DNA from: Nitrosopumilaceae archaeon
GTDB taxonomy: Archaea; Thermoproteota; Nitrososphaeria; Nitrososphaerales; Nitrosopumilaceae
Length of the DNA: 64,000 nt
Reading direction: 5' to 3'
Assembly: GCA_965200155.1 (NCBI GenBank)
Contig: CBDATR010000024.1
Coordinates: forward strand, 352,001-416,000
The position numbers were made by a program, and so were the translations under genes. This document shows, one piece after another, positions 1,958-56,464 of this stretch. The notes under the pieces were generated by a model that saw nothing but the letters and a program-made list of their open reading frames with translations, was not told where the DNA came from and ran no database searches. Each line of letters starts with the position of its first letter. Within the stretch, counting starts at the first letter, position 1.

Positions 1958-3406
1958 TTGGGAACAGTGTTTTTAATTGTGTACATTGCATATACTGTGG
2001 CAGCTGTATTGCTATTGGTCGCGGTAACACCCTCTGCCATGGCACAGTTCCAACAAGGTGGCGTAGACCACCCCGGTGAATGGTATGTGGGCGAGGGCCT
2101 ACAGGCGGGCGACTTTTTCTCGTACTCCATGTGTCATGTTGACTATAGGGAGTGTGCCAACTTTCAGATGGATATCTGGATAAAGGGTGACATAGTAGTG
2201 GGCACAGAGACAAAGTGGCTGGCCCATGTAGTAGTGTATGACGGTAACAAAATCATCAAGGGCGAGATGGAGCTAGGCAGAGTTGCGCCAGAGCCTAGTG
2301 GCGGTAGTGAAGATCTTACCTCATACAGGGGTGCCTTCAAGTCTTCTGTAGTATGGCTATCTGCCTTTGCCAACTCCAATGAGCCCAAAGCATTCTCGCT
2401 TCCATCCTGGGGCAAGATAGCTAACATAGGCGGTGAGCAGATACTGCCCAGGGAGCTGATAGATGGTGGTTTCAGTACTGCAGCTGGCCACTTTGATGAT
2501 GTGGTGCAGGTAGGTTGGAGGACTGGTGGTTATACCAGCAAGGTCTGGGTAGCTGACGGGTTTCCTTTTCCAGTACAGGCATTAACCTGGACTCATGTAT
2601 CCGAGGGCATTCCGCCCAGGGAATATGAGTTTGAACTGCTCCGTTACTACAATACAGATGTTGATCCCCTGGCAGATGTGGTGCCTACGTCACAGGATCC
2701 GGCCATAGTGGGATGCCCGAACTTGGGCGGCCTTGAGCAATCCATCAAAAAGTCTACAATACTCTTCAATTATCAGGTACATGCATTCTACACGCCGGAT
2801 CCACCCGTAGAGAACTGTCCCATGAAGTGGCTTGTAAAATTCATCTCCAAGTATGATGATACAGAATTTCTGAACCAGGTTCAATATGACATACAGGTGG
2901 TGGAACTGAATGAGGAGGGTCAACTGGTCACTACGCGATCAATAGCCGATGAGATTGGCAGGCGTATTCTCTACTCTCCCTCCGGACAGTCGGAGATAGA
3001 GTTCATGGTAAAAGAATCTGGTACCGTCAACTATATGATATTCATACATGGTCTGGCGCCGGAGAACGTAGTACCGTCACAGGATCAGATAGACTATCTG
3101 CTTCTGCCTCTTGATATATCATCGGCAGAGGATGCGTCCATTCCTCCATGGGTAAAGAATACCGCCTTGTGGTGGGCTCAGGGCGATATCGACGACGACT
3201 CCTTCATAAACGGATTACAGTTTCTTATAGGTCAGGGCATCCTGAATGTACCGCCGCCGGATTCTGTCGTGGATGGCGCCCCCGGCCCCATTCCCAGCTG
3301 GGTAAAGAATAATGCTCTCTGGTGGGCTCAGGGCGATATCGACGACGACTCCTTCATAAACGGATTACAGTTTCTTATAGGTCAGGGCATACTACAGGTA
3401 TCCTGA
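1958..3406 (+). CDS. Secreted/surface protein with two C-terminal thaumarchaeal 'IPxWVKNxALWWAQG' repeats
   Basis: N-terminal hydrophobic signal peptide; duplicated C-terminal motif WWAQGDIDDDSFINGLQFLIGQGIL typical of Nitrosopumilaceae exported proteins. Confidence 0.85.
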   Translation: MGTVFLIVYIAYTVAAVLLLVAVTPSAMAQFQQGGVDHPGEWYVGEGLQAGDFFSYSMCHVDYRECANFQMDIWIKGDIVVGTETKWLAHVVVYDGNKIIKGEMELGRVAPEPSGGSEDLTSYRGAFKSSVVWLSAFANSNEPKAFSLPSWGKIANIGGEQILPRELIDGGFSTAAGHFDDVVQVGWRTGGYTSKVWVADGFPFPVQALTWTHVSEGIPPREYEFELLRYYNTDVDPLADVVPTSQDPAIVGCPNLGGLEQSIKKSTILFNYQVHAFYTPDPPVENCPMKWLVKFISKYDDTEFLNQVQYDIQVVELNEEGQLVTTRSIADEIGRRILYSPSGQSEIEFMVKESGTVNYMIFIHGLAPENVVPSQDQIDYLLLPLDISSAEDASIPPWVKNTALWWAQGDIDDDSFINGLQFLIGQGILNVPPPDSVVDGAPGPIPSWVKNNALWWAQGDIDDDSFINGLQFLIGQGILQVS

Positions 3407-9838: not shown

Positions 9839-9930
9839 GTATGAGTTCACCTGTGTCTAAATTTACGCATAACTGATCGCTACAGTTAATGTGATTTGTG
9901 CATAAGATTCCGGAAGACGTGAACTCATAC
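9839..9930 (+). mobile_element. 92-bp MITE, family 1 (TIR GTATGAGTTCAC)
   Basis: 12-bp TIRs; 8-bp target duplication tatgtttt. Confidence 0.95.
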
Positions 9931-17710: not shown

Positions 17711-18710
17711 TTAGGTCACGTCTGGTTCTCTGACTTTTTGTTTCAGATAACCAGTGGCTAGATTGTTATATCCGGCATATCCGTAACACGTGATTAGCTT
17801 GTCCAGTATGTCTGAATAGTACATTTTGATTATCTCCGATGAGCGTGAGGTGGCCAGCTTGTATGCTATGCTGTCATTTCCACTGCACGCCCACGCGTAT
17901 GCAGTCTTGCCGTTCAGCGAGAGGGGGGTCTCGTCCATCAGTATGGTCTCGGATTTGATCAAATCCTCCCGGATTTTTCCCACCTCTTTCTCCATTTTTT
18001 CAGATGCAGCTTCCATGGCGTGCTGTATTGTTGTCTTGCAGGAGCCACTCATCCTTGATTTGATCCCGATTGTATCGCTTCCATGGCGTGCTGTATTGTT
18101 ATCTTGCAGGAGCCTGCCTCGTACATTTTCATGGTGTCCGCGATACCCTGCAGTGTGGAACCATTGTAATATGCAGTGGTCATTATGGTCAATAAGTTGG
18201 GTCCAAATTGTGTGCCCGGGATACTCCGGGTTCATGTACCATATCCGTAATGTTATGACATTCCCGGCACCGTCACTCCTCTGTTATGTGCGCGGTAACC
18301 TCGGCTTTCGGAATAACGGGTATGTCTGTTGTGGTGTTGCCGGTCTTTTCCAGGTTTTTAGAGCCGCATTTTGAACACTTGTCAGGGGTCTTGTCAGGGG
18401 TCTTGCGGACTATTTTGTCAGGCCTTCTGTTGTGGTATTTTCCCGGGTGCCCGCTCCTCCGGCCTCACTTGAGTGGAGTTTACCTTTTTCTTTGCGGCTT
18501 TTTTTCATCTTCTGAGGAATGGAGTTCTGTGATGGTTGGGGTATGCGGGTTTTCATAGTATCGGAGACGATTCTTTAATGATTTTACTTCCACATCCCTC
18601 GCTGTGAGTATTATCTTCAATTCTGTCTTGTCTGTCTCCAACCTTGTAATCTTGTCTGATTGTATCTCGATGATCATGTCTTTCCCTTTGATTATTCTGA
18701 TCAGTTTACC
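17711..18710 (-). pseudogene. IS66-family transposase, central/C-terminal fragments (frameshifted)
   Basis: RYYENPHTP, ILMDETP...AYAW, SRSSEII, (D)GYAGY motifs spread over several frames. Confidence 0.8.
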
Positions 18711-18959
18711 GGGAATTATATATGAAAGTAGCACAGAAGAAGCGTATCGCTCCAACTAGGGACGAAAATGGAATGTAACCCGTTCCAGTCCAAGAATGGC
18801 GCTACGCGTAACTAGAATGATTCACCATTCCATGGAATAGAACCGGTTCCCTGGTTGAACTTGTTACACGACTTATTGTAACTATGCCGCCATTCCTGGA
18901 CTGGAAATCATTATTCTAGTGAAAGCCCTACTGCAGTGCTACTTTCGTATATAATTTCC
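18711..18959 (+). mobile_element. ~250-bp MITE, family 2 (left arm of composite transposon)
   Basis: 24-bp imperfect TIR gg(g/a)aattatata(t/c)gaaagtagcac; near-identical inverted copy at 22836-23088. Confidence 0.9.
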
Positions 18960-19114
18960 TGCTCAAGTGTGGCAACCATCTTATCCAACCAGAATCCAGC
19001 ATGGCGAACAGGTACACCGCGAATCATGTATATTCACCAGTCCTCCACTTCTCACCACCTGTAGTTCCATGATTCTGTATTGACGTTCATCATGAGTGGT
19101 GGCAGTCTTGCGCG

Positions 19115-19244
19115 GTATGAGTTCGCCTATGTCTAAATGGAACGGGTCATTCTATAACTGATCGCGACAGTTAAAGAGTAACCGGTTACTATTTTGTGCA
19201 TAAGATTGGAGTAACCGGTTACGTTCCAAGACGTGAACTCACAC
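19115..19244 (+). mobile_element. MITE family 1, expanded variant (130 bp)
   Basis: Same TIRs with mismatches; three internal segments replaced by short palindromes; no target duplication. Confidence 0.9.
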
Positions 19245-19266
19245 ACCCATTCTTTGTAATTGCAAG

Positions 19267-21498
19267 TTACTGGAGTGTCGTGAATGTCTTGATATTTGAG
19301 AACATAGTAGTGTCGCCCTTGAGCCGGACTAGTACCTGGTATGAGGTATCTGAATCCAAGCCTGTTATAGTATACGTGGTACCTGAGACATGATGTGCAG
19401 AGTGACGACTGCCATCATTGTTATTGATACGCACTACATAATCTGTCATGGAATGGTACTGATTCCAAGATAGAGTGGCGCCATTAGTGGTTGGGTTCAC
19501 ATTCAGTACTATGGAGTCTTCGACTCCCGTCAAGCCGCCATTCGCTGAGAGTGTAGTGAATGTCTTGGTATTTGAGAACATAGTAGTGTCGCCCTTGAGC
19601 CGGACTAGTACCTGGTATGAGGTATCTGAATCCAAGCCTGTTATAGTATGAGTGGTTCCGGCAACATGATTCACGAGTACTCTTGCGCCATTGGAATCAT
19701 TCACGCGAATCACATAGTCGTTTGTATCACCATATTTCTGCCAGGAAGCAGTAGCACCATCAGTTTTACTAGTCACTACAAGTCCCCACATATGTGTCGG
19801 GAATGAGGGAGTGAAATGTATCTTGTGTGACTTTGTATTTTCATTACCATTTAGCTGGACCTCAACTCTATACGTGGTACCTGGTATCAAATCATGTATA
19901 GTATGTGAGATTCCATTTGCCACATGTCTGGTCGTATCGCCATCGTTCCCTGTTAGAAACACCACATAGCTATTACCATTCTCATACCGGTCCCAATGTA
20001 TTGTGATACTACTCTCATCTAAATAGCAGTAGCCAACACGTGACACTTTGTCTATACTACGTATTGGTTTAGTATTCCAAGTGGAGAATGTGATTGGGTC
20101 TGAATCCGTGGCCGGACCGGTAACCGGGTGAGATGGGGCCGATACCGTTACAGTATAAGATTGACATGGTTCAAGTCCATATAATCTATATTTAACAATG
20201 GAATCGGCCGGGGCGTGGTGTGTTGTATGACTCGTTACATGACCGGATGAATCCGTTACCTTCACAATATACTCAGACTGCCTGGATATTGCGGTCCACG
20301 TTAAATCTACATGAGTAGAGAATGTCTTGTGTACGGCAAGGTCTGCCAGTGGAAGATTAGTAGTAGAGAATGATTTTGTCGCGGAGCCTACCTCCATATA
20401 AGCACCAGTTCCATTATATAGGGCGCTGACCTTTAAGTTGTAGTTGGTGCCCGGTTGCAGGCTGTCAACGTCTAGATTAATGGTTGTATTGGCCTGATAA
20501 TAACCTGTATGGCCCTGTGTTATAATATCATCGGAGTCAGTCGTCACCCTATACCCAAAGAAACCCGGATGATTCGCCATCCACGAGAAGGATGCGGCAT
20601 GGTGCGATATAGCAGTGGTATCCAGGTCCTCTATCATAATGGAATGGTTCGTGTCCCTGGTTTCAAAGTTGAACGAGCCGACGCTCATTGCTTTGGTATT
20701 ATCAGCGTATACATTTACCATATAGGTTGTGCCTGGTTCTAGTCCGGATATGCGTGTCATGCCCTCACTAGCCATACCAGATGCTACTACCTCATCACTA
20801 GTAGATACCTCATAGTATGATGAGTCTACATTCCACGACATGAATATAGTGTCATGCCCTATTTCTGTAGAGGGGATGAATGGACTGGTGGTCACAATAT
20901 CTAAACTTAGAAGGATAGCATTATCAAGACCAAATACATAGCCGCCAGTATACCTTGTCTCCGGTTTCAGATCCGTAACAGTAATAGTCGATCCTGTCGT
21001 GTAGTATACAGTCTCCGGACCATCAAGAAAAACTCCAGTGGTAGATACTCGGTCCTCTGGCGCTAGTTCTACGGTGAGAGTAGTATCCGTTATTTCTATG
21101 ATACGGGGTACCTCTATGCTACTTTCAGTGACGTTCAGTATAAAGTCATCATTGGCACGATCATTAACATTGGTTTTGTCCCATATGGTAATGCGAAGTT
21201 GGTATAAGCCAAATTGAGTACGGTCGGGTACTGCAAAAAGTTCAAATAAACCATGCCGTGAAGGTTTAGTTCCAATAAAATCGGGCGCTTTGGTACCGTT
21301 CTGATATTTTACCTCATAGTAGGAGTCAGTTGCATTAATTATGTAAGACCCTATCGTGCCCGCTTCTAGTTCGACTTCACCTAGTGGAGCGGTGAACTCT
21401 GGTGCAGCGGCGTATGCGGACGTTGCAAATGTAGTTATGATGATGAGTAATAGGATTGATTGTACCCCCCCCGGGAACCATAATAATACTAACAACAT
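19267..21498 (-). CDS. Secreted fibronectin type III repeat protein with an N-terminal cadherin/Ig-like domain
   Basis: Signal peptide; repeated ITGLxPxTxYxVxV FN3 signatures (about seven modules); G8 tract at 21465-21472 in the signal region. Confidence 0.88.
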   Translation of the reverse strand: MLLVLLWFPGGVQSILLLIIITTFATSAYAAAPEFTAPLGEVELEAGTIGSYIINATDSYYEVKYQNGTKAPDFIGTKPSRHGLFELFAVPDRTQFGLYQLRITIWDKTNVNDRANDDFILNVTESSIEVPRIIEITDTTLTVELAPEDRVSTTGVFLDGPETVYYTTGSTITVTDLKPETRYTGGYVFGLDNAILLSLDIVTTSPFIPSTEIGHDTIFMSWNVDSSYYEVSTSDEVVASGMASEGMTRISGLEPGTTYMVNVYADNTKAMSVGSFNFETRDTNHSIMIEDLDTTAISHHAASFSWMANHPGFFGYRVTTDSDDIITQGHTGYYQANTTINLDVDSLQPGTNYNLKVSALYNGTGAYMEVGSATKSFSTTNLPLADLAVHKTFSTHVDLTWTAISRQSEYIVKVTDSSGHVTSHTTHHAPADSIVKYRLYGLEPCQSYTVTVSAPSHPVTGPATDSDPITFSTWNTKPIRSIDKVSRVGYCYLDESSITIHWDRYENGNSYVVFLTGNDGDTTRHVANGISHTIHDLIPGTTYRVEVQLNGNENTKSHKIHFTPSFPTHMWGLVVTSKTDGATASWQKYGDTNDYVIRVNDSNGARVLVNHVAGTTHTITGLDSDTSYQVLVRLKGDTTMFSNTKTFTTLSANGGLTGVEDSIVLNVNPTTNGATLSWNQYHSMTDYVVRINNNDGSRHSAHHVSGTTYTITGLDSDTSYQVLVRLKGDTTMFSNIKTFTTLQ

Positions 21499-21946
21499 AG
21501 AACAATAAAAGGATTACGTGGTTGTCAGTTATATGTCACCTTTTGGTGATCAGAGCAGGACGCAATTCTCTTTATAGGTATACCATACCCGGATATCGTA
21601 GAAATGGGACCCACACTCCGGGTAAGGACGGGGATAACAGGGTAATCAGTCCATATTCAATCCATGTATTGCACTTGAATCCATGTACCTACTTTACAGC
21701 GCCAATGACAGGTATGTGTTTAATTGGAATCTTTTCCGCACGTAACGCATCCCAAATCTTTGGCACGCCCACAGCTGGTTCTTCGCCGCACATTGAAGGG
21801 TCTCTGATTCTAGCCGGTATTAGTGTGGTTTCCAATTATTGCCGCGCTAGATTGGGATTGTGTGGGCAGGAGACCCCCCTCCTGCGCGCCATGAGTGGAG
21901 AGGCAGGAATCCCATGCGGGACATATGTCAAAGATGAGCAAACTAG

Positions 21947-21968
21947 GGGACTTTTATCTAAAAGTCCA
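21947..21968 (-). mobile_element. 22-bp hairpin micro-element with 5-bp target duplication
   Basis: actag-[gggacttttatctaaaagtcca]-actag; same length and ends as the insert at 36554-36575. Confidence 0.75.
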
Positions 21969-22192
21969 ACTAGAAGGTAGCGAAAGGATGTAACAGGCGA
22001 TGATTAGTGGAGATATTCATGAAACCGTATTCAAGTGAGTGGACGTGACAGTCATAATCATGTATTAACATCAAAGACACCGTTGCAAACCTTGCTCTAT
22101 TCCCATACTGTACCTGCAATGACTAGGCGACTGGTGGGAAAAATCATTCCTGGACGCTCAGGTTGGATTGACCCGCAACAGGAGTCCAAACA

Positions 22193-22786
22193 CTACTTGG
22201 TTATGCTTATCTGTCCGACTAACAGACTTTTAGATTTCAGTGTCCGCCGCAATAACCCATGGCAGGTATGAGTTCACCTGTGTCTAAATGGAACGGGTCA
22301 TTCTATAACTGATCGCGACAGTTAAAGAACCGGTTCTTTTGTGCACAAGATTCCGGAAGACGTGAACTCATACCATGGCAGTGGTCGCGGCTCCAAAGAG
22401 TATGTTTAGGACATTGGCATCCACGCCGGTGGACATCATTGTAAACATCAACATCATTAATCCACCCAGACCGGCAAATATCATCATGGTTAAAGGAAGC
22501 TGCTTTGGCGGAGGCCTTGTCTGCTTGCCAGTGGGCTTTTCCGGAATGACGCCATTCTTTACTGCCTCCAGGCATACGAACAGTACCGACCATGATTGTG
22601 TGATTTCAGGTAATAGTATTCCACGCCGCAGAATGAGCAGGGCTTAGTGGGTATTCCGTGATGATCAAACTCCCGGCCAAGATCCACCATGCAATTCTTG
22701 CAGTAGTGGCCGGGAATTCGCCACATGTTCTGGAACTTGTATTTCTTCCAGCTTAGCGTCTTGCCACAACCACTACAGTTAGTCAT
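22193..22786 (-). pseudogene. Zinc-finger membrane protein, frameshifted and MITE-interrupted
   Basis: CSGC/CKNC N-terminus; TM part (MMIFAGLGGLMML...ILFGAATTAM) in another frame; tail (LLRRTLKSKSLLVG) beyond the MITE at 22266. Confidence 0.65.
22266..22373 (+). mobile_element. MITE family 1, variant (108 bp)
   Basis: TIRs intact; 8-bp target duplication catggcag; two internal palindromic replacements. Confidence 0.95.
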
Positions 22787-22835
22787 GTCTTTCTCTCATC
22801 ATTACCTTCTTAATACCTGCTCTGGCCTCTATTAT

Positions 22836-23088
22836 GGAAATTATATACGAAAGTAGCACGGCAGTAGGACTTTCACTAGAATAATGATTCCAGTCCAGGA
22901 ATGGCGGCATAGTTACAATAAGTCGTATAACAAGTTCAGCCAGGGAACCGGTTCTATTCCATGGAATGATGAATCATTCTAGTTACGCGTAGCGCCATTC
23001 TTGGACTGGAACGGGTTACGTTCCATTCCACTTTCGTCCCTAGTTGGAGCGATACGCTTCTCCTGTCCTACGTTCGTATATAATTCCC
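22836..23088 (-). mobile_element. ~250-bp MITE, family 2 (right arm of composite transposon)
   Basis: Reverse complement of 18711-18959 with scattered substitutions. Confidence 0.9.
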
Positions 23089-23401
23089 AGTTTACCGTTA
23101 GCGCCTATAGATCCGGCTAGTTTGTCCCGCAGTATTTTGACTTTCGGATGTACCATCCGTCAGTTATTGAGCAAATTAGTATGTGCTTGCGGTTGAGCTG
23201 CTCCCTTAGTTGAGCTAAATATTCCTCACGCAATGCCAATTCTTTACGTTTCCTTGGCATTGGTTGACTCCAGCTCTTCCCCCTCTCAGACAACCGGCAG
23301 ATAATCAAATCTTTCTCTTCATTGATCTTGGTGTTTCTTTCGTATTCAGCCATGACCTTGGCTAACTTGTCCCGTAGAATCTCAACCTCGGGGTCTTCCA
23401 T
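23089..23401 (-). pseudogene. IS66-type transposase N-terminal coiled-coil fragments (two paralogous starts)
   Basis: MEDPEVEILRDKLA (ATG 23401) and MVHPKVKILRDKLAGSIGANGKL (ATG 23156); the latter runs in frame into IRIIKGKDM at 18702 once the composite is removed. Confidence 0.7.
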
Positions 23402-23479: not shown

Positions 23480-24060
23480 GCGCGTTTCCGGGTGGCGGCT
23501 TATCTGTTGGTCCTGCCAGAGATGGCAACTGTTGCAATGGGTCCGGAACTTTCCAATTCCAGGGTGTGCTCCCTGTCCAGTTGTGGCTCTTCTGCATACG
23601 AGCCCAGTACTGCATTGTTTAACATGCACGTATCCCCAACCCACTCGCCGGTAATCGTAAATGCATATGCTCTCCCAGTCCGCGAGCACTGATGAATCCG
23701 CGCCTCTTTTTCCATTTGGCCCTTATCCACTCAGCACGATTCAAGGCCGGTCGAGTCAACAATCATGGTTCTAGTCAGCTTTTTGTCTGTGCCGACAATC
23801 ATGCCATTCCCCTTGTCGATGTCAAGATCTTTTCCGCGTCTGTATAGTGGAGTAGTACGGGGTTTGGTGCCCTTCCAGTAGTCCTGCAAGGAATCCGGAT
23901 ACCTACCTGTATCTCATACCTAATGCCGTTCTCAGTGTCATGTAATATGCCCACGGCATACTGGCAGGGAGCACCTCCTTGTTATGGTTGGCCTTTTCAA
24001 TCCCATGCATGATCAAGCCAAATAGCTTCCCGCTGGACGTACTTGACATTGTCGGTGAAT
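23480..24060 (-). pseudogene. IS5-family (IS903-like) transposase remnant
   Basis: PYYST/LYRR...MIVDSTGL...EWIRAKWKKRRGFI motifs with frameshifts; second copy at about 41692-42073; boundaries approximate. Confidence 0.7.
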
Positions 24061-25868: not shown

Positions 25869-26972
25869 TCACCGACGAATCATTAACAACATGTCATCGC
25901 TGTCTGCCGGAAAGCCCTTGCCGTCTGTGTTGGAGGTTATCACGTATAGTGCCCCTGCATCATCCTGTGCTACATCCCGGATGCGGCCCACACCACTAAG
26001 TATGTTCTTCTGGGATGACAATCCCGTATCGACATCTATCTCAAGCAGGCTGGAGGTACGCAGTGATGCAATCACCGCATAACCGGGAGTGGCCACATCT
26101 CCGGACGGGAAGAGTATTCCCCCAGGCTCAATGGCTGGATCATAGCATATAACGGCATCAATATAGTCGCCACCTGCACACTCTACATCGGGCCAGCCGT
26201 AGTTGCCGCCAGGCACTATGCGGTTTATCTCATCGCTCTTTTCCGGGCCGGACTCTGCCACATACATCTCTCCCTGATCATTCCATGCAATCCCCCGGGG
26301 ACTGCGATGGCCCAAGGAATAGACCAGCGAGTCCTCAAAGGGGTTATCAACAGGTACGCTTCCGTCGGGCATCATGCGCAACACCTTGCCCGCCAATGAA
26401 CTCACATCCTGTGGCAGATGCGATGAGTCTGAGGGCGTCCCGGTCCCCACATACAGCATGCCATCAGGTCCAAAATGCATTACCCCCCCATTGGTAAACT
26501 GGGATCCTGGTATTCCGTCCAGTATTGTTGTCGCGTCCACAAGTTTGTTGTCCACGATTCTTACCTCCAATATTCGGTTGTACAGCATATCGTTATCGGA
26601 TACGTAAGATATGTAGACGTACACCAAACCGTTACTGTCATGGTCCGGGTGTATAGCCACACCACTAAGTCCCGCATCAAAGGCCTCGGCGGGCCTTAGT
26701 GTGGCAACGGGATCTTGTTGCAGTATGCCACCCTGTACAAGCCGGAGGCGCCCTTCCCGCTCTGTTATGAATATCATGTCCCCATGAACAGCAATGTGAC
26801 GGGGCTTGTCCAGGTTCTGTGCCAATATAGTCACAGAATCATCAGGTCCGCCGGTAGGGGGTGCGGGGACCTGTACCGGATCCGACGGAGATGTCAATAC
26901 CCATACCGAGAATGCCACCGCGGCCCCTATGGCCACAATGCGTATCTTTTTGTCCAAACTCATCGTAGACAT
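25869..26972 (-). CDS. PQQ-dependent glucose/sorbosone dehydrogenase family protein
   Basis: ITEREGRL, FGPDGMLYVGTG, SLAGKVLR, DEINRIVPGGNYGWP, GRIRDV; N-terminal anchor. Confidence 0.92.
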   Translation of the reverse strand: MSTMSLDKKIRIVAIGAAVAFSVWVLTSPSDPVQVPAPPTGGPDDSVTILAQNLDKPRHIAVHGDMIFITEREGRLRLVQGGILQQDPVATLRPAEAFDAGLSGVAIHPDHDSNGLVYVYISYVSDNDMLYNRILEVRIVDNKLVDATTILDGIPGSQFTNGGVMHFGPDGMLYVGTGTPSDSSHLPQDVSSLAGKVLRMMPDGSVPVDNPFEDSLVYSLGHRSPRGIAWNDQGEMYVAESGPEKSDEINRIVPGGNYGWPDVECAGGDYIDAVICYDPAIEPGGILFPSGDVATPGYAVIASLRTSSLLEIDVDTGLSSQKNILSGVGRIRDVAQDDAGALYVITSNTDGKGFPADSDDMLLMIRR

Positions 26973-30916: not shown

Positions 30917-31164
30917 GCTTGAAGTGGTATGAATGGTTCCTGCTCCCTCTCAATCTCCTCTACGGTATCGTGGCTGCGTATGGTCACCAGCTTGAAGTGA
31001 CATGAATGGTTCCTGCTCCCTCTCAATCTCCTCTACGGTATCGTGGCTGCGTATGGTCACCAGCTTGAAGTGACATGAATGGTTCCTGCTCCCTCTCAAT
31101 CTCCTCTACGGTATCGTGGCTGCGTATGGTCACCAGCTTGAAGTGACATGAATGGTTCCTGCTC
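30917..31164. repeat. 73-bp tandem repeat, about 3.4 copies
   Basis: atgaatggttcctgctc starts at 30929, 31002, 31075, 31148; units essentially identical; ends at the IS481-like element. Confidence 0.95.
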
Positions 31165-32097
31165 TCAATAGTACGAAAAGTAAGTCCGCTTAGGATCCGG
31201 CGTACAGTAGTTCAGATTGCACAAGCCATATGGTAAAGAGAATAACAGAGGAATCACGACAAAAGAGGCGTTGCCGCCACCAAAATAGCTCAAGACCTGA
31301 AACAAGACACGTACGAAGATTGTGAACCAGAGAACGGGAACGACTCGAGTAAAGAGGGGCAGGCCCATGATACCAATCACCGCCACCCAGATACGAATGG
31401 TGACTGAAGCATATCACAAGGATCCCGCCGGAGTAGTACGTATTGCAAAGAGACTTAGACAGAATTACAATATATCGCGCAGTATATCGCATAATTAAAA
31501 AGAACGGTACGGCAGGATCATCACCTGCAAAGTCAGAGTGGGTACGCTATGAGCGTAAATATTCCAATGCAATGTGGCACTGGCATGTCATGAAAGATGA
31601 GCGCTTCAGGGGACTGAATCTCATAGATGATGCATCCAGGTGTATAGTCGGAGCGGCACTATTTTAGCATGCAACCTCAGAGAACGCCACTCTATTACTG
31701 AGATTGGCTATAGAACGATTCGGCGCCCCTGCATCTCGGATAACGGCGCGTGTTTCGTAGGACAATAAAAGGGCAAGAAAAGCTGGAAACCCACTATTCT
31801 AGGAAGAACTGCTGAATCAAGACATCATACTAATCAATTCCAGGTCATACCATCCACAGACAAATGGCAAACTGGAGCGCTTCCATGGAATGATTGAGGA
31901 CGAGATATGGCATTATGACAGTCTCCGGGATTATGTTGACTACTACAATGAGAGAAGGTTGTACTTCTCACTGGATATAGATAACGGCGAAACATCGCTT
32001 CAGGAATAAAAAGGCGACCCAGACAATTAGGGCAAATGATGCAAAATGGATGGAGCGGGATGCCAATGACTAGCGGACCGACTTTTCATACATTACA
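31165..32097 (+). mobile_element. IS481-family non-autonomous derivative, copy 1
   Basis: Imperfect TIR (tcaatagtacgaaaagtaagtccgct / tgtaatgtatgaaaagtcggtccgct); broken integrase-core ORF (RYERKYSN, DDASR, SDNG, HPQTNGKLERFH, YYNERR). Confidence 0.85.
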
Positions 32098-32149
32098 ATG
32101 GTGGGCGCTATACAACAACTCTTATTTACTTTTATTGGACTGTTGACTT

Positions 32150-36233: not shown

Positions 36234-36355
36234 AGAATAATGCGCCCGCTATGCCAATAACAAAGAGGACTGGCACTATTATTGGTATTGCGTCGTACAA
36301 TTGTGTGTAATGCTTGCTTGTAATGAATAAATACATTTTGAGAGTCCAGTATTAT

Positions 36356-37313
36356 TGTAATGTATGAAAAGTCGGTCCGCTAGTCATTGGCATCCCGCTC
36401 CATCCATTTTGCATCATTTGCCCTAATTGTCTGGGTCGCCTTTTTGTTCCTGAAGTGGCGTTTCGCCGTTATCTATATCCAGTGAGAAGTGCAACCTTCT
36501 CTCATTGTAGTAGTCAACATAATCCCGGAGACTGTCATAATGCCATATCTCGTTGGACTCTTAAATAGGAGTCCCCTCGTCCTCAATCATTCCATGGAAG
36601 CGCTCCAGTTTGCCATTTGTCTGCGGGGGGTATGGTCTGGAATTGATTAGTATGATGTCTTGATCCAGCAGTTCTTCCTAGAATAGTGGGTTTCCAGCTT
36701 TTCTTGCCCTTTTATTGTCCTACGAAACACGCGCCGTTATCCGAGATGCAGGGGCGCCGAATCGTTCTATAGCCAATCTCATTAATAGAGTGGCGTTCTC
36801 TGAGGTTGCATGCTCAAATAGTGCCGCTCCGACTATACACCTGGATGCATCATCTATGAGATTCAGTCCCCCTGAAGCGCTCATCTTTTCATGACATGCC
36901 AGTGCCACATTGCATTGGAATATTTACGCTCATAGCGTACCCACTCTGACTTTGCAGGTGATGATCCTGCCGTACCGTTCTTTTTCATTATGTGATATAC
37001 TGCGCGATATGTATTATGTCTCAGTCTCTTTGCAATATGTACTACTCCTGCGGGATCCTTGCTGTATGCTTCAGTCACCATTCGTATCTGGGTGGCGGTG
37101 ATTGGTATCATGGGCCTGCCCCTCTTTACTCGAGTCGTTCCCGTTCTCTGGTTCACAATCTTCGTACGTGTCTTGTTTCAGGTCTTGAGATATATTGGTT
37201 GCGGCAACGCCTCTTTTGTCGTGATTCCTCTGTTATTCTCTTTACCATATGGCTTGTGCAATCTGAACTACTGTACGCCGGATCCTAAGCGGACTTACTT
37301 TTCGTACTATTGA
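36356..37313 (-). mobile_element. IS481-family non-autonomous derivative, copy 2
   Basis: Reverse-complement copy of 31165-32097; carries a 22-bp hairpin insertion. Confidence 0.85.
36554..36575 (+). mobile_element. 22-bp hairpin micro-element with 5-bp target duplication
   Basis: ctcgt-[tggactcttaaataggagtccc]-ctcgt; copies 1 and 3 of the host IS show the empty site with one ctcgt. Confidence 0.85.
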
Positions 37314-41093: not shown

Positions 41094-41185
41094 GTATGAG
41101 TTCACCTGTGTCTAAATTTACGCATAACTGATCGCGACAGTTAATGTGATTTGTGCATAAGATTCCGGAAGACGTGAACTCATAC
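41094..41185 (+). mobile_element. 92-bp MITE, family 1
   Basis: 8-bp target duplication gccatact. Confidence 0.95.
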
Positions 41186-41691: not shown

Positions 41692-42073
41692 TGCATTGTT
41701 TAACATGCGCGTATCCCCAACCCACTCGCCGGTAACCGTAAATGTGAGTATTCTCTTGCTTTCACCGTCCGCGAGCACTGATGAATCCGCGCCTCTTTTT
41801 CCATTTGGCCCTAATCCACTCGCCACGATTCAAGGCCGGTCGAGTCAACAATCATGGTTCTAGTCAGCTTTTTGTCTGTGCCGATAATCATGCCATTCCC
41901 CTTGTCTATGTCAAGATCTCTTCCGCGTCTGTATATTGTGGAGTAGTACGGGGTTGTATGAGTTCACCTGTGTCTAAATTTACGCATAACTGATCGCGAC
42001 AGTTAGTGTGATTTGTGCACAAGATTCCGGAAGACGTGAACTCATACACGGGGTTTGGTACCCTTCCAGTAGT
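41692..42073 (-). pseudogene. IS5-family transposase remnant, second copy, MITE-interrupted
   Basis: Close match to about 23610-23882; MITE inserted at 41956. Confidence 0.75.
41956..42047 (+). mobile_element. 92-bp MITE, family 1
   Basis: 8-bp target duplication acggggtt; empty site visible in the paralogous IS5 remnant at about 23857. Confidence 0.96.
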
Positions 42074-44632: not shown

Positions 44633-44724
44633 GTATGAGTTCACCTGTGTCTAAATTTACGCATAACTGATCGCGACAGTTAATGTGATTTGTGCATAAG
44701 ATTCCGGAAGACGTGAACTCATAC
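44633..44724 (+). mobile_element. 92-bp MITE, family 1
   Basis: Intact TIRs; right flank gtcaatag is the reverse complement of the right flank of the copy at 48427-48533. Confidence 0.95.
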
Positions 44725-44725
44725 G

Positions 44726-45748
44726 TCAATAGTACGAAAAGTCCGCTTAGGATCCGGCGTGCAGTAGTTCAGATTGCACAAGCCAGATGGTAAAGAGGAT
44801 AACAGAGGAATCAAGACAAAAGAGGCGTTGCCGCCACCAAAATAGCTCAAGACCTGAAACAAGACACGTACGAAGATTGTGAACCAGAGAACGGGGACGA
44901 CTCAAGATGGGCAGGCCCAAGATACCAATCACCGCCACCCAGATACGAATGGTAACTGAAACATACGGCAAGGATCCCGCCGGAGTAGTACGTATTGCAA
45001 ATAGACTTAGACAGAATTACAATATATCGCGCAGTATATCGCATAATGAAAAAGAACGGTACGGCAGGATCATCACCTGCAAAGTCAGAGTGGGTACACT
45101 ATGAGCGTAAATATTCCAATGCAATGTGGCACTGGCATGTCATGAAAAGATGAGCGCTTCAGGGGACTGAATCTCATAGATGATGCATCCAGGTGCATAG
45201 TCGGAGCGGCACTATTTGAGCATGCGATCTCAGAGAACGCCGCTCTATTACTGAGACTGGCAATGAAACGATTCGGCGCCCCTGCATCTCGGATAACGGC
45301 GCGTGTTTCGTAGGACAATAAAAGGGCAAAAAGAACTGGAAACCCACTATTCTAGTATGAGTTCACCTGTGTCTAAATTTACGCATAACTGATCGCGACA
45401 GTTAATGTGATTTGTGTATAAGATTCCGGAAGACGTGAACTCATACCTATTCTAGGAAGAACTGCTGGATCAAGACATTATACTAATCAATTCCAGGCTA
45501 TACCACCCGCAGACAAATGGCAAACTGGAGCGCTTCCATGGAATGATTGAGGACGAGATATGGCACTATGACAGTCTCCGTGATTATGTGGACTACTACC
45601 ATGAGAGAAGGTTGCACTTCTCACTGGACAGATAACGGCGAAACACCACTCCAGGAATAAAAAGGCGACCCAGACAATTAGGGCAAATGATGCAAAATGG
45701 ATGGAGCGAGATACCAATGACTAGTGGACCGACTTTTCATACATTACA
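44726..45748 (+). mobile_element. IS481-family non-autonomous derivative, copy 3 (with MITE insertion)
   Basis: Matches 31165-32097; MITE at 45355-45446. Confidence 0.85.
45355..45446 (+). mobile_element. 92-bp MITE, family 1, nested in IS481 derivative
   Basis: 8-bp target duplication ctattcta; empty site in copies 1 and 2. Confidence 0.97.
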
Positions 45749-45793
45749 ATGTGATGACAATATTTATATTATTGTATACCATATTTTATCAAA

Positions 45794-47626
45794 ATGTTAA
45801 AATCTACTAACCGTAACAATATCGTACTTAAAGCTTTAATCGGGGGGGGGGGTCTCCTCCTTGCACTTTTACTAGTATTAGTACCGGCCACTGATCTTGC
45901 GTTTGCTCAAACAATCGAGTCTATCCACATATCTGTAGGTCCCGCCTCCACTAGTGCCACCGTTACATGGCATCAGTACCCAGGTGATACCGAATATGTC
46001 GTGGTGTTACGTAATGGATTTGGAGATAGAATTCCCGGTGGGGTAACACGCACTTCAGGAGACACATATGATATTACCGGACTGACTCCTGACTCCCAAT
46101 ATATCGTATTTGTCAGAACCATTGGAGACGGCTTTGTCAAGTCCAACACTGTACAGTTTAAGACAAAAGTCGCTCCCTCTAGTTCCATTAATACTATACC
46201 AGACATTACCATGGATGAGTCCGAGAGAAGAACCATACCACTCAGTGTAACCCCTGCGAGTGATTCTGTCACATATGCAATAACCAAACAGGACGGCACG
46301 GCTGCACCCAGATTTGCATACATAGCTGACGTATCTCCTGACCGTACATTTAGAGACGGCATTGTTTTGGCTCCTAACAGAAGCGAAAGTGGACAATATT
46401 CACTGCGTGTCACAGCAACTATTGGTAGCGACACCATACATGAGGACTTTGCACTTACCGTGAATGACGGCACTATAGATCCACCTAGTATCTCAGAAAT
46501 AACACCAAATTCTATAACTATTGAAGTACCTGGAACTCAACCAAAAGATGTTAAAAACTCACATCTTTGTATGATGGCTGATGTCTCTGAATCTTCTCCA
46601 TTGAAGTATAAACTGACCGAATCTCTGACTATTCATGGTACCATGACAATCACAAACCTCTTACCTAATACTGATTACACCATCCGTGTGATCAACGAAT
46701 GCGAAGATATAGGTTTAGCAACCTTCAATGTCAATACTGGCTCCTCCGCCCTAAGCTTCACTGACACCATAAATGACATTACCATGGCCGAGGGCACAAC
46801 ACGTAACATACAGATCAATGCAACTGATTCTGATAATAGGGACATTACATATAGTGTAGAGGTCCTGAACGACAAGACATTACCTGGCTCTGCGAAAATA
46901 TTAGATAGTACCCTCGTTTTGGAGCCTGATAGAACAGCAGCAGGGGAATACACTCTACGTGTCACAGCAACTGCTGGCAGCGACACTAAACGTGATGAAT
47001 TTGTACTTACCGTAAGTGACCCTGGTATTAATCCACCCCAAATCAAAACTCAAAATAGCACCTCTGTAACTATAGAGGTCGCCTCAGAGGACTATAATAC
47101 AAAAGACCCAACCTGTACAACCGCCGCTATCTTCAAAACCTCCTCCGGAGCTGCAAGTGCTGATTTAGAGGATTTCGAATCAAACCCCCTTACAATTACG
47201 GGCCTCTCACCTGATACTGCGTACACCATACGTGTGTTTAAATCCTGTGAACCCGATGTTGGAAGGCTGGGAATCCTAAAGTTCACTACATCTAGTAACA
47301 GTCAGACATCACCTGATAACAGTCAGACATCACCTGATAACAGTCAGACATCACCTGATAACAGTCAGACATTAGTACTAAGTAGAACCATAAGTGGCAA
47401 TGATGTTACTCTAAGCTGGAACGACTTGGCAGATACTGCCTATATCGTGGCGGTATTTGATGGGGACGGAGACCGAGTCATTACTGGCGGATCAGCACGC
47501 GTATCAACTAACTCCTATACCCTCGAAGACCTAGATGCTGACACATATACGGCATTTGTGAGAACCCCTGGACCCTCAGGAACTCATACCATGTCCAACA
47601 CTGTAACCTTTACCATCACTAGTTAA
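45794..47626 (+). CDS. Secreted FN3 / cadherin-like repeat protein
   Basis: Signal peptide with G11 tract (45842-45852); ITGLTPDSQY, ITNLLPNTDY, ITGLSPDTAY FN3 motifs alternating with DITMxE...GxYxLRVTAT cadherin/Ig-like modules; TATA-like tttatat at 45763. Confidence 0.88.
   Translation: MLKSTNRNNIVLKALIGGGGLLLALLLVLVPATDLAFAQTIESIHISVGPASTSATVTWHQYPGDTEYVVVLRNGFGDRIPGGVTRTSGDTYDITGLTPDSQYIVFVRTIGDGFVKSNTVQFKTKVAPSSSINTIPDITMDESERRTIPLSVTPASDSVTYAITKQDGTAAPRFAYIADVSPDRTFRDGIVLAPNRSESGQYSLRVTATIGSDTIHEDFALTVNDGTIDPPSISEITPNSITIEVPGTQPKDVKNSHLCMMADVSESSPLKYKLTESLTIHGTMTITNLLPNTDYTIRVINECEDIGLATFNVNTGSSALSFTDTINDITMAEGTTRNIQINATDSDNRDITYSVEVLNDKTLPGSAKILDSTLVLEPDRTAAGEYTLRVTATAGSDTKRDEFVLTVSDPGINPPQIKTQNSTSVTIEVASEDYNTKDPTCTTAAIFKTSSGAASADLEDFESNPLTITGLSPDTAYTIRVFKSCEPDVGRLGILKFTTSSNSQTSPDNSQTSPDNSQTSPDNSQTLVLSRTISGNDVTLSWNDLADTAYIVAVFDGDGDRVITGGSARVSTNSYTLEDLDADTYTAFVRTPGPSGTHTMSNTVTFTITS
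47296..47372 (+). repeat. In-frame 21-bp tandem repeat (NSQTSPD) x3.7
   Basis: taacagtcagacatcacctga perfect copies. Confidence 0.95.
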
Positions 47627-47688: not shown

Positions 47689-48007
47689 GGCATAGCCATG
47701 AAATTGTTCTAGCCGCCCAACCACGGGATGGCATAGCCATGAAATTGTTCTAGCCGCCCAACCACGGGATGGCATAGCCACGAAATTGTTCTAGCCGTCC
47801 AACCATGGGGTGGCATAGCCATGAAATTGTTCTAGCCGCCCAACCACGGGATGGCATAGCCACGAAATTGTTCTAGCCGTCCAACCATGGGGTGGCATAG
47901 CCACGAAATTGTTCTAGCCGCCCAACCATGGGGTGGCATAGCCACGAAATTGTTCTAGCCGCCCAACCATGGGGTGGCATAGCCACGAAATTGTTCTAGC
48001 CGTCCAA
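47689..48007. repeat. 41-bp minisatellite, about 7.8 copies
   Basis: ggcatagcca(t/c)gaaattgttctagccg(c/t)ccaacca(c/t)ggg(a/g)t at 47689, 47730, 47771, 47812, 47853, 47894, 47935, 47976; no spacers. Confidence 0.97.
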
Positions 48008-48426: not shown

Positions 48427-48533
48427 GTATGAGTTCACCTGTGTCTAAATGGAACGGGTCATTCTATAACTGATCGCGACAGTTAAAGAACCGGTTCTTT
48501 TGTGCATAAGATTCCGAAGACGTAAACTCATAC
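48427..48533 (+). mobile_element. MITE family 1, variant
   Basis: Same two internal replacements as the 22266 copy; right flank ctattgac. Confidence 0.93.
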
Positions 48534-48960
48534 CTATTGACGTCCGGCTCCACCCTCACTACAAGGGTCGTTTTCCTGTCATCATTTATTGGTGCTAATC
48601 GGCTCTCGCCTCCCTTACCCAATAGTGTCACCAAATCATAACCGTCCGGTAATATATCCGGTAGCGGGATTGAAAGTCGGTTATTGCCATCAGGTCCTGT
48701 TACTGTACCAGCGTCACGTCAATTTGGGACTGGTATGATGGAATCACATTATCGTTAGCCGCGTGTACGGTAGTCACAGGCATTATTCCGGTAACAGCAA
48801 ATACAAGGTATGAGTTCACCTGTGTCTAAATTTACGCACAACTGATGGAACAGGTTGTTCTAGTTAATGTGATTTGTGCACAAGATTCCGGAAGACGTAA
48901 ACTCATACAATACAAGACTCACTGTAGCCAAGATTGTAATTATGGTAGTTTTGTTATTAA
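48534..48960 (-). pseudogene. Remnant of an exported-protein gene, MITE-interrupted
   Basis: Removing the MITE at 48808 gives NNKTTIITILATVSLVFAVTGIMPVTTVHAAND (signal-peptide-like), then a frameshifted continuation; upper boundary approximate. Confidence 0.45.
48808..48908 (+). mobile_element. MITE family 1, variant (101 bp)
   Basis: 8-bp target duplication aatacaag; cgcgac replaced by ggaacaggttgttct. Confidence 0.95.
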
Positions 48961-56372: not shown

Positions 56373-56464
56373 GTATGAGTTCACCTGTGTCTAAATTTAC
56401 GCACAACTGATCGCGACAGTTAATGTGATTTGTGCACAAGATTCCGGAAGACGTGAACTCATAC
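56373..56464 (+). mobile_element. 92-bp MITE, family 1
   Basis: 8-bp target duplication gaattttt. Confidence 0.96.

What the first reader, a model, noticed from the sequence alone, without database searches (positions are those of the whole stretch)
18703..23096. MITE-bounded composite transposon moving an FN3 surface-protein gene
Seen: two inverted ~250-bp MITEs (18711-18959, 22836-23088) enclose about 3.9 kb with no transposase. The same 8-mer agtttacc lies only at the two outer ends. Deleting the unit plus one 8-mer restores the frame MVHPKVKILRDKLAGSIGANGK-LIRIIKGKDM...RYYENPHTP. The cargo is an intact 743-aa FN3 protein gene plus a decayed membrane-protein gene. Established: paired MITEs can mobilise cargo in bacteria, and FN3/cadherin proteins are enriched in sponge symbionts. 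Inference: a non-autonomous vehicle spreading host-interaction genes in an archaeon, which I do not know to be described.
Basis: partly seen in the sequence, partly recalled or inferred. Interest (0 to 1): 0.82.

Follow-up and report, generated by a model that had tools for sequence, protein, structure and literature searches.

The report
MITE-flanked gene-carrying transposon in an archaeon
A 4.4-kb piece of DNA carrying an intact cell-surface-type (FN3) gene, bounded by two inverted copies of a 250-bp repeat and lacking any transposase, jumped as one unit into a dead IS66 transposase gene of an ammonia-oxidiser-like archaeon; this kind of element is known in bacteria.

Summary
Two inverted 249/253-nt repeats (93.7% identical), each with about 32-nt terminal inverted repeats, bound 18711-23088. 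AGTTTACC abuts only the two outer ends. Removing the unit and one 8-mer rejoins an IS66-family N-terminal reading frame.

New support: three uninterrupted copies of that frame exist in public protein data (P0002, P0007, P0009). They read straight through the junction, and P0002 and P0007 match 21/22 and 22/24 residues on its two sides. This is an empty-site allele at protein level.

The cargo has no transposase domain. It holds an intact 743-aa FN3 gene, a frameshifted Zn-ribbon/membrane gene and two small MITEs of another family.

The FN3 gene has one relative among 5.8 billion proteins, 98% identical. It lies on another contig, most probably of the same genome, so the gene is duplicated.

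Gene content confirms an archaeon, and TruD relatives are Nitrosopumilales.

Not shown:
- that the 250-bp repeat is an independently mobile MITE (no solo copy seen);
- the partner transposase;
- a second copy of the unit;
- any sponge link.

MITE-bounded composites are established in bacteria. My library searches found no archaeal case. Verdict: real, and a new member of a known kind.

The parts
18703..18710 (.). Left copy of the 8-bp target-site duplication, AGTTTACC.
   Evidence: Read directly. Positions listed. Chance of an 8/8 match is 1.5e-5.
18711..18959 (+). Left bounding repeat ('family-2 MITE', 249 nt). The outer end starts GGGAATTATATA and the inner end is the GGAAATTATATA type.
   Evidence: (I1-I4). 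It folds as a long single-strand DNA hairpin, -45.5 kcal/mol, z=-7.35.
18960..19114 (.). Spacer between the left repeat and the first family-1 MITE. No family hit.
   Evidence: Stop-to-stop frames gave no Pfam family.
19115..19244 (+). Degenerate family-1b MITE (130 nt) without its own target duplication, lying just past the 3' end of the FN3 gene.
   Evidence: Flanks are CTTGCGCG / ACCCATTC, 0/8 match.
19267..21498 (-). Intact 743-aa gene. It has an N-terminal hydrophobic signal-like segment, an Ig-like module and then FN3 repeats. The last two repeats are a 93% tandem duplication. No C-terminal membrane anchor is seen.
   Evidence: ORF. Pfam fn3 E=4.8e-33 with 6 stretches. Repeat D1. The Atlas gave the lead He_PIG/fn3 at score 0.90 for residues 30-215. 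A native paralogue at 45794-47626 shares both module types at 33-42% identity.
21499..22236 (.). About 740 nt of unassigned sequence between the FN3 start and the decayed gene. It contains a TATA-like ACATATAA 31-38 nt upstream of the FN3 ATG; calling this a promoter is inference.
   Evidence: The sequence was printed. No Pfam or NCBIfam family in any frame.
22237..22786 (-). Decayed gene. A Zn-ribbon N-terminus (75-aa ORF) is frameshifted into a C-terminal hydrophobic segment, which is further interrupted by a family-1b MITE.
   Evidence: translation after removing the MITE and one duplication copy. No family hit.
22266..22373 (+). Family-1b MITE (108 nt) with its own perfect 8-bp duplication, CATGGCAG, at 22258-22265 and 22374-22381.
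22836..23088 (-). Right bounding repeat (253 nt), inverted relative to the left one. Both outer ends are therefore the same end type.
23089..23096 (.). Right copy of the 8-bp target-site duplication, AGTTTACC.
17711..18710 (-). Target, downstream part. This is the rest of the IS66-family transposase pseudogene: the coiled-coil N-terminal ORF, a Zn-finger region with in-frame stops, and a partial DDE domain.
   Evidence: Pfam DDE_Tnp_IS66 at 1e-12. NCBIfam transpos_IS66 at 2.4e-13, below its cut-off. Read-through.
23097..23162 (-). Target, upstream part: the first 22 codons of the same IS66-family N-terminal ORF.
   Evidence: 21/22 residues identical to P0002 and P0007.

Best explanation
The segment 18711-23088 (4,378 bp) is a non-autonomous, composite-type DNA transposon. 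Two inverted copies of a ~250-bp repeat, each bearing terminal inverted repeats and MITE-like in form, enclose a stretch of ordinary chromosomal DNA.

That stretch holds an intact secreted FN3-repeat protein gene with its own upstream region, a decayed Zn-ribbon/membrane gene and two small MITEs of another family.

A transposase supplied in trans, not encoded in the unit or the window, acted on the two outermost ends, which are of the same type. It inserted the whole unit into codon 22-25 of an IS66-family transposase (pseudo)gene and duplicated 8 bp (AGTTTACC).

Shown: the anatomy, the outer-only duplication, precise restoration of the target, uninterrupted sister copies of the target, the absence of a transposase domain, and a 98% second copy of the cargo gene elsewhere.

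Inferred: that the bounding repeats are independent MITEs, that a DDE-type enzyme making 8-bp staggered cuts did it, and that the second FN3 copy is related to this mobility.
For: - Structure and ends.
- Duplication only at the outer junctions. P=1.5e-5.
- Frame restoration.
- A gapless alignment across the junction with the neighbouring IS66 fragment 23117-23401(-): 15/34 identical.
- Empty-site evidence. A scan of 1.84 billion representatives with the 76 residues left of the unit found P0002 (E=2.9e-27). Its N-terminus continues into the 22 residues encoded right of the unit.
- P0002, P0007 and P0009 are all uninterrupted at that point. On the right/left sides of the junction they match 21/22 and 22/24; 21/22 and 22/24; 13/22 and 20/24.
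- No transposase family in any stop-to-stop frame of 35 aa or more between the repeats, nor in NCBIfam.
- Both outer ends are the same end type. A single collapsed repeat therefore cannot explain the junctions (alignment).
- The same genome clearly supports 8-bp-duplicating insertion of small non-autonomous elements. Of 16 family-1 MITEs in the window, 9 have perfect and 1 has 7/8 own duplications.
- The cargo gene is duplicated. Its only relative in the 5.8-billion-protein set, P0001, is 476/484 identical and lies on a 540,264-bp contig.
- The window's TruD has no relative above 64% identity, and its cluster's longest contig is 512,672 bp. That other contig most likely belongs to the same genome.
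Against: - No solo copy of the 250-bp repeat was seen. There are only the two copies in 64 kb.
- An exact-pattern scan of 185,579 species genomes gave 0 hits. That collection evidently lacks this genome, so the copy number in the genome is unknown.
- No candidate transposase with matching ends was found. The only transposase remnant in the window is the decayed IS66.
- Only one insertion event is documented.
- The DNA around the 98% FN3 paralogue could not be fetched. Its duplication may have nothing to do with the repeats.
- The window's own 743-aa protein is not in the protein set, although other window proteins are. I cannot explain this.
- The source appears to be a multi-contig assembly. 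The junctions rest on assembly through 250-bp repeats.
Confidence: 0.72

Rival explanations
1. It is one transposon with long (~250-bp) terminal inverted repeats, not a composite of two independent MITEs. On this reading it is an internally deleted or replaced derivative of an autonomous element, and the inner copies of the 24-32-nt end motif are subterminal transposase-binding sites.
For: The 250-bp sequence occurs only as the two ends of this unit in the window. It was not found elsewhere (though that collection lacks the genome). Neither copy has its own target duplication.
Against: Each 250-bp copy is a complete unit bearing terminal inverted repeats, with a strong hairpin fold (I4/I5). 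The inner ends are the best-conserved part, with 24 nt identical in the two copies. No transposase remnant is detectable inside. The interior is ordinary host-type DNA: a paralogue of a native gene family peppered with the genome's other MITEs.
Confidence: 0.2
2. It is an assembly artefact. The interior (cargo) was joined wrongly through the 250-bp repeats, so the FN3 gene does not really lie between these ends.
For: Contig lengths reported for the window's proteins (512,672 bp) and for sister proteins (540,264 and 238,848 bp) indicate a multi-contig assembly. The junction ORF P0008 is reported on 2 contigs while TruD is on 1. A near-identical FN3 copy exists elsewhere.
Against: The two repeat copies differ by about 6%, including a 5-nt indel, so they are distinguishable. 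The window's FN3 differs from the other copy at 8 of 484 residues, so it is not a collapsed copy. Whatever the interior, the two flanks still demand an element with two like ends at one 8-bp target.
Confidence: 0.05
3. Two independent insertions of the repeat were followed by inversion or recombination, or an intramolecular replicative transposition created the inverted pair.
For: Inverted repeats can recombine. Replicative intramolecular events are described for other families (passages of PMC7986276; PMC13367494).
Against: These routes predict that an inner flank equals the reverse complement of an outer flank. Here the inner flanks TGCTCAAG and TCTATTAT match neither AGTTTACC nor its complement. 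They also do not predict that the two outer flanks rejoin into one uninterrupted gene.
Confidence: 0.03

Closest known systems
TIME-COMPs: composite transposon-like units bounded by two Tn3-derived miniature elements in Enterobacteriaceae (PMC13367494; passages read)
   Same: Two ~250-bp non-autonomous elements, often in inverse orientation, bound 1-10 kb of cargo. There is no transposase inside. Past movement is inferred from direct repeats flanking only the outermost ends. Mobilisation is in trans.
   Different: TIMEs make 5-6-bp repeats and have Tn3-type ends, whereas here the repeat is 8 bp and the ends start GGGAATTATATA. TIME-COMP hosts are bacteria, their replicons are mostly plasmids and their cargo is resistance genes. 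Here the host is an archaeon, the site is chromosomal and the cargo is an FN3 gene. In-trans mobilisation of TIME-COMPs has been shown by experiment (passages); here nothing has been tested.
439-bp MITE pairs flanking class 1 integrons in Acinetobacter (PMC3934969, passages; summarised in PMC10969869 and PMC6382973)
   Same: A MITE pair encloses kilobases of cargo and is inserted into an ORF, with a target duplication at the outer ends only. The parent transposase is unknown.
   Different: Those MITEs are identical copies in the same direction with a 5-bp duplication. Here the copies are 6% diverged and inverted, with an 8-bp duplication, in an archaeal host.
Classical IS-bounded composite transposons (Tn5/Tn10 type; Tn6645 with ISAba3 ends and 8-bp duplications, PMC6382973)
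   Same: Inverted bounding elements, use of the outermost ends, an 8-bp duplication (Tn6645) and arbitrary cargo.
   Different: Their bounding elements encode the transposase. Here the ends are 250 bp and non-coding.
IS6/IS26 pseudo-compound transposons (PMC7986276, passages)
   Same: An 8-bp duplication, GG at the tips, and presence of the family in archaea.
   Different: IS6 units are invariably bounded by direct repeats and have cTGTt/caaa end motifs. Here the copies are inverted and the ends lack those motifs.

Membership tests
MITE-bounded composite transposon | Two copies of one short, non-coding element bearing terminal inverted repeats flank the segment. | tested here: met
   The copies are 249 and 253 nt, 93.7% identical, each with ~32-nt terminal inverted repeats. 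No open frame of useful length lies in either copy.
MITE-bounded composite transposon | A target-site duplication flanks the outermost ends only. | tested here: met
   AGTTTACC lies at 18703-18710 and 23089-23096, and the inner flanks are unrelated. P=1.5e-5.
MITE-bounded composite transposon | An uninterrupted (empty) version of the target exists. | tested here: met
   Met at protein level only. P0002, P0007 and P0009 read through the junction. These are sister copies of the IS, not the same locus in another strain.
MITE-bounded composite transposon | No transposase is encoded between the ends. | tested here: met
   The interior frames gave 0 transposase families in Pfam (E up to 0.05) and NCBIfam. 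The limit is the sensitivity of the profiles.
MITE-bounded composite transposon | The bounding element is itself a multicopy mobile family, with solo copies that have their own duplications. | tested here: inconclusive
   There are 0 solo copies in the 64-kb window. The pattern scan of genome contigs gave 0 hits, but that collection does not hold this genome. The rest of the genome could not be read.
MITE-bounded composite transposon | A cognate autonomous element with the same ends supplies the transposase. | not testable with these tools
   There is none in the window, and the genome was not available.
TIME / Tn3-derived miniature element | A 5-bp (sometimes 6-bp) duplication and Tn3-type inverted repeats. 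| tested here: not met
   The duplication here is 8 bp. The TIME criterion is taken from passages of PMC13367494.
IS6/IS26 pseudo-compound transposon | The bounding copies are in direct orientation, with cTGTt and caaa motifs in the ends. | tested here: not met
   The copies are inverted and the ends lack the motifs. The criteria are from PMC7986276.
Fibronectin type III repeat protein (cargo) | Pfam fn3 above the gathering score, in repeated copies. | tested here: met
   113.7 bits against a cut-off of 25, with 6 stretches.
IS66-family transposase (target gene) | DDE_Tnp_IS66 domain present and reading frame intact. | tested here: not met
   The domain is present in part (Pfam 48.5 bits against a 23.1 cut-off, profile positions 38-143 of 284). 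NCBIfam gives 49.9 bits against a cut-off of 180. In-frame stops and frame changes are seen. It is a relative of the family, but a pseudogene.

The most novel reading that the evidence does not exclude
The unit is one of at least two copies of a still-mobilisable, trans-driven MITE composite that copies secreted FN3/Ig-repeat genes around a thaumarchaeal genome. On this reading the 98% FN3 paralogue on the 540-kb contig is either the donor, bounded by the same two repeats with TGCTCAAG and TCTATTAT as their private duplications, or a second insertion. This would be the first documented non-autonomous cargo shuttle in Archaea, and a route by which surface-protein families expand there.
Probability: 0.25. 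Interest if true: 0.55.

Novelty: new member of a known kind. Interest (0 to 1): 0.38.

Why it matters
MITE-bounded composites are documented as gene movers in bacteria, mainly for resistance genes. The 2024 MITE review I read in passages gives only bacterial examples of MITE-flanked mobilisation.

This locus is a clean archaeal case, with a precise duplication and an uninterrupted sister target. It would show that the same shortcut operates in Thaumarchaeota: two small non-autonomous repeats capture whatever lies between them. Here it acts on a secreted FN3-repeat gene that is duplicated in the genome.

It is also a practical warning for annotation. Transposase-based mobile-element scans would miss it entirely.

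The gain is incremental. The mechanism is not new, and only one event is documented.

Tried and rejected
- Exact scan of genome contigs for the 21-nt end pattern: 0 stretches.
- The search for related loci with the FN3 protein: 37 pattern matches, none confirmed by tblastn. No DNA context was obtained for any relative, no empty site at DNA level, and no census of the repeat.
- Transposase search inside the unit and in the unassigned ORFs of the window: nothing.
- Rfam on the whole window: one tRNA only, nothing in the unit.
- IS6/IS26 origin was rejected on orientation and end motifs. Tn3/TIME origin was rejected on duplication length.
- Inversion or intramolecular replicative origin was rejected on the flanks.
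- Looking for MITE copies through translated spurious ORFs was considered and dropped. All six frames of the repeat are full of stops.
- The Atlas search on FN3 residues 30-215 gave only a lead, He_PIG/fn3 at score 0.90.
- Library searches for an archaeal MITE-bounded composite returned only bacterial cases or unrelated papers. The library omits most subscription journals, so this is not proof of absence.
- I did not run structure prediction, fold search or complex prediction. None would bear on the mobility claim.
Full report
**1. What is in the sequence**

Positions 18711-18959 (249 nt) and 22836-23088 (253 nt) are inverted copies of one sequence. They are 93.7% identical over 254 aligned columns and differ by about ten substitutions, a 5-nt indel and a 1-nt indel.

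Each copy carries its own terminal inverted repeat of about 32 nt, 84% and 82% complementary (I4 and I5). Each also folds as a long single-strand hairpin; the left copy gives -45.5 kcal/mol, z=-7.35, and 0 of 200 shuffles fold as well.

A 21-nt end pattern, allowing up to three mismatches, finds exactly these four ends in the 64-kb window and none in 100 shuffles.

Because the copies are inverted, both outer ends are the same end type (starting GGG). Both inner ends are the other type (starting GGA) and are identical to each other over 24 nt.

**2. The duplication and the target**

AGTTTACC abuts the outer ends at 18703-18710 and 23089-23096. The inner flanks, TGCTCAAG and TCTATTAT, match neither it nor its complement. 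The chance of 8/8 at fixed positions is 1.5e-5.

The 8-mer is not unique in the window. It also occurs at 18477, and its complement at 26493 and 52982.

Removing 18711-23096 rejoins a minus-strand frame of 96 codons. Downstream of it lie a Zn-finger-like stretch with in-frame stops and a partial DDE_Tnp_IS66 domain (Pfam 1e-12; NCBIfam transpos_IS66 2.4e-13, below cut-off). The target is thus an IS66-family transposase gene that is dead irrespective of this insertion.

**3. Independent test of the junction**

Two tests support it. The first uses the neighbouring IS66 N-terminal fragment at 23117-23401(-). It aligns without gaps across the rejoined junction, 15/34 identical.

The second uses public protein data. 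I searched 1.84 billion representative proteins with only the 76 residues encoded left of the unit. The best hit, P0002 (115 aa, E=2.9e-27), extends N-terminally into the very 22 residues that the window encodes right of the unit.

A follow-up search gave four proteins:
- P0002 and P0007, both on a contig of 540,264 bp.
- P0009, on a contig of 238,848 bp.
- P0008, shown with masked sources and therefore the window's own ORF. It starts inside the left repeat.

All three non-window copies are uninterrupted at the junction. On the two sides they match 21/22 and 22/24, 21/22 and 22/24, and 13/22 and 20/24 residues. P0007 is 80/85 identical overall.

It is at protein level and comes from sister copies of the IS, not from the same locus in another strain.

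**4. The cargo**

*FN3 gene.* ORF 19267-21498(-) encodes 743 aa with a hydrophobic signal-like N-terminus and six Pfam fn3 stretches (E=4.8e-33). Its terminal FN3 unit is tandemly duplicated at 93% (D1). An N-terminal module looks Ig-like to a language-model search (He_PIG/fn3 clusters, score 0.90; a lead only). I saw no C-terminal anchor, so 'surface protein' is plausible but not shown.

A second FN3 protein in the window, 45794-47626(+), shares both the N-terminal module (32-33% identity) and the FN3 modules (36-42%). The cargo gene therefore belongs to a family native to this genome.

G+C content of the unit is 0.42-0.48, against 0.49-0.55 in the flanking housekeeping genes.

*Decayed gene.* Between 22237 and 22786(-) lies a Zn-ribbon ORF frameshifted into a hydrophobic C-terminal part. 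It is further split by a 108-nt MITE of another family that has its own perfect 8-bp duplication, CATGGCAG. A second, degenerate copy of that family lies at 19115-19244.

*No transposase.* Stop-to-stop frames of 35 aa or more from 18882-22853 gave no transposase family, only three chance-level hits (E 0.02-0.03) to unrelated families. NCBIfam gave none either.

**5. Host and the second FN3 copy**

The window encodes TiaS, both archaeal primase subunits, an aIF5B-type factor, L7Ae, archease, PTH2, TruD and a diphthamide synthesis protein. The host is an archaeon. Named relatives of its TruD are Nitrosopumilus, Nitrosarchaeum and Nitrosopumilaceae, at 49-52% identity.

The FN3 protein has a single relative in the 5.8-billion-protein set. 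This is P0001, 484 aa, equal to residues 260-743 with 476/484 identical, on a 540,264-bp contig.

The window's TruD is found at 100% on a 512,672-bp contig, and the next best TruD is only 64% identical. No closely related genome is therefore in that set. The 540-kb contig cannot be the syntenic region of a sister strain, because it carries no TruD of 90% or more.

The simplest reading is that the 540-kb and 238-kb contigs belong to the same assembly as the window. On that reading the FN3 gene has a recent paralogue and the IS66-like element has several copies. This is inference from identity and contig-length columns. I could not read the DNA.

**6. Mechanism**

The anatomy matches a composite transposon in which a trans-acting transposase uses the two outermost ends. 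The inference is the same as that used for TIME-COMPs (direct repeats flanking only the outermost inverted repeats, PMC13367494 passages). It is also the inference used for the 439-bp MITE pairs around Acinetobacter integrons (PMC3934969 passages).

The 8-bp duplication excludes a Tn3/TIME origin. The inverted orientation and the ends lacking cTGTt/caaa motifs argue against IS6/IS26 (PMC7986276 passages).

The window shows that small non-autonomous elements making 8-bp duplications have been active in this genome. Of 16 family-1 MITEs, 9 have perfect and 1 has 7/8 private duplications; the other 6 have none.

From memory, not from a call: IS66-family elements make 8-bp duplications and have ends beginning GTAA. 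This makes the family-1 MITEs (ends GTATGAG) candidate IS66 derivatives. The 250-bp repeat has different ends, and I cannot name its parent.

**7. Rivals**

- *(a) A single long-TIR element rather than a composite.* This remains open, because no solo 250-bp copy was seen. Against it stand the complete, hairpin-forming structure of each end with its own terminal inverted repeats, the host-type interior and the lack of any transposase remnant.
- *(b) Mis-assembly of the interior.* It is unlikely because the two repeats and the two FN3 copies are distinguishable. Also, the flanks by themselves require an element with two like ends at one target.
- *(c) Independent insertions plus inversion, or intramolecular replicative transposition.* These predict inner-outer complementary flanks, which are absent.

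**8. What stayed open**

Several things were not shown:
- the genome-wide copy number of the repeat;
- the partner transposase;
- the context of P0001;
- why the junction ORF P0008 is reported on two contigs when TruD is on one;
- why the window's own 743-aa protein is missing from the protein set.

The sponge-symbiont framing is untested. [quoted passage not shown]

**9. Novelty**

MITE-bounded composites are established in bacteria. Six library searches found no archaeal example. The 2024 review of prokaryotic MITEs, read in passages, lists archaeal MITEs but gives only bacterial examples of MITE-flanked mobilisation. The library lacks most subscription journals, including older surveys of archaeal insertion sequences, so priority cannot be asserted.

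I rate it a new member of a known kind. It is well documented at this locus and of moderate interest.

Noticed in passing
window 9839-63978 (16 copies, e.g. 9839-9930, 41094-41185, 56373-56464): There is a dense family of 92-130-nt MITEs with ends GTATGAGTTCAC...GTGAACTCATAC. Nine of 16 have perfect private 8-bp duplications, one has 7/8 and six have none. A longer subfamily (99-130 nt) lies at 19115, 22266, 48427, 48808 and 63880.
   Followed up: partly
window 31165-32100 (+), 36354-37313 (-), 44726-45751 (+): Three copies of a ~935-bp repeat, 87-94% identical, with imperfect inverted ends and no visible target duplication. The third copy carries a family-1 MITE (45355-45446) with its own duplication, CTATTCTA. 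Its only ORF of 100 aa has no family hit. It is possibly another non-autonomous element.
   Followed up: partly
window 44725-44732 and 48534-48541: The right flank of the MITE at 44633-44724 (GTCAATAG) is the exact reverse complement of the right flank of the MITE at 48427-48533. This could be the footprint of an inversion between inverted MITEs. However, the left flanks do not match, and the 8-mer is also the start of the 935-bp repeat.
   Followed up: no
window 23611-23864 and 41692-41955: A 254-264-nt repeat, 91% identical. The second copy ends exactly at a family-1 MITE with duplication ACGGGGTT, and the first copy ends with a single ACGGGGTT.
   Followed up: no
window 23117-23401 (-): A second IS66-like N-terminal fragment lies directly upstream of the interrupted one. 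The 17.6-25.2-kb interval between TruD/DUF202 and the nitroreductase gene is a graveyard of mobile-element debris with no intact gene apart from the cargo FN3.
   Followed up: partly
window 45794-47626 (+): A second secreted-type FN3/Ig-repeat protein of 610 aa, a distant paralogue of the cargo gene (33-42% identity in shared modules). It is flanked by a copy of the 935-bp repeat and followed by an 82-nt-period tandem array at 47689-48007.
   Followed up: partly
protein set: P0008, P0010, P0001: The window's junction ORF P0008 is reported on 2 contigs, while single-copy TruD (P0010) is on 1. The window's own 743-aa FN3 protein is absent from the set although smaller window ORFs are present. 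Unexplained.
   Followed up: no
window 18711-18735, 18935-18959, 22836-22860, 23064-23088: All four ends of the 250-bp repeat contain a TTATATA motif that resembles an archaeal TATA box. The inner end of the right repeat lies about 50-60 nt upstream of the Zn-ribbon ORF start at 22786. Outward or inward promoter activity is speculation.
   Followed up: no
window 3138-3243 / 3288-3393 and 30917-31164: Further short tandem or direct repeats: 106 nt at 91% inside ORF 1958-3406, and a 73-nt-period array next to the 935-bp repeat.
   Followed up: no
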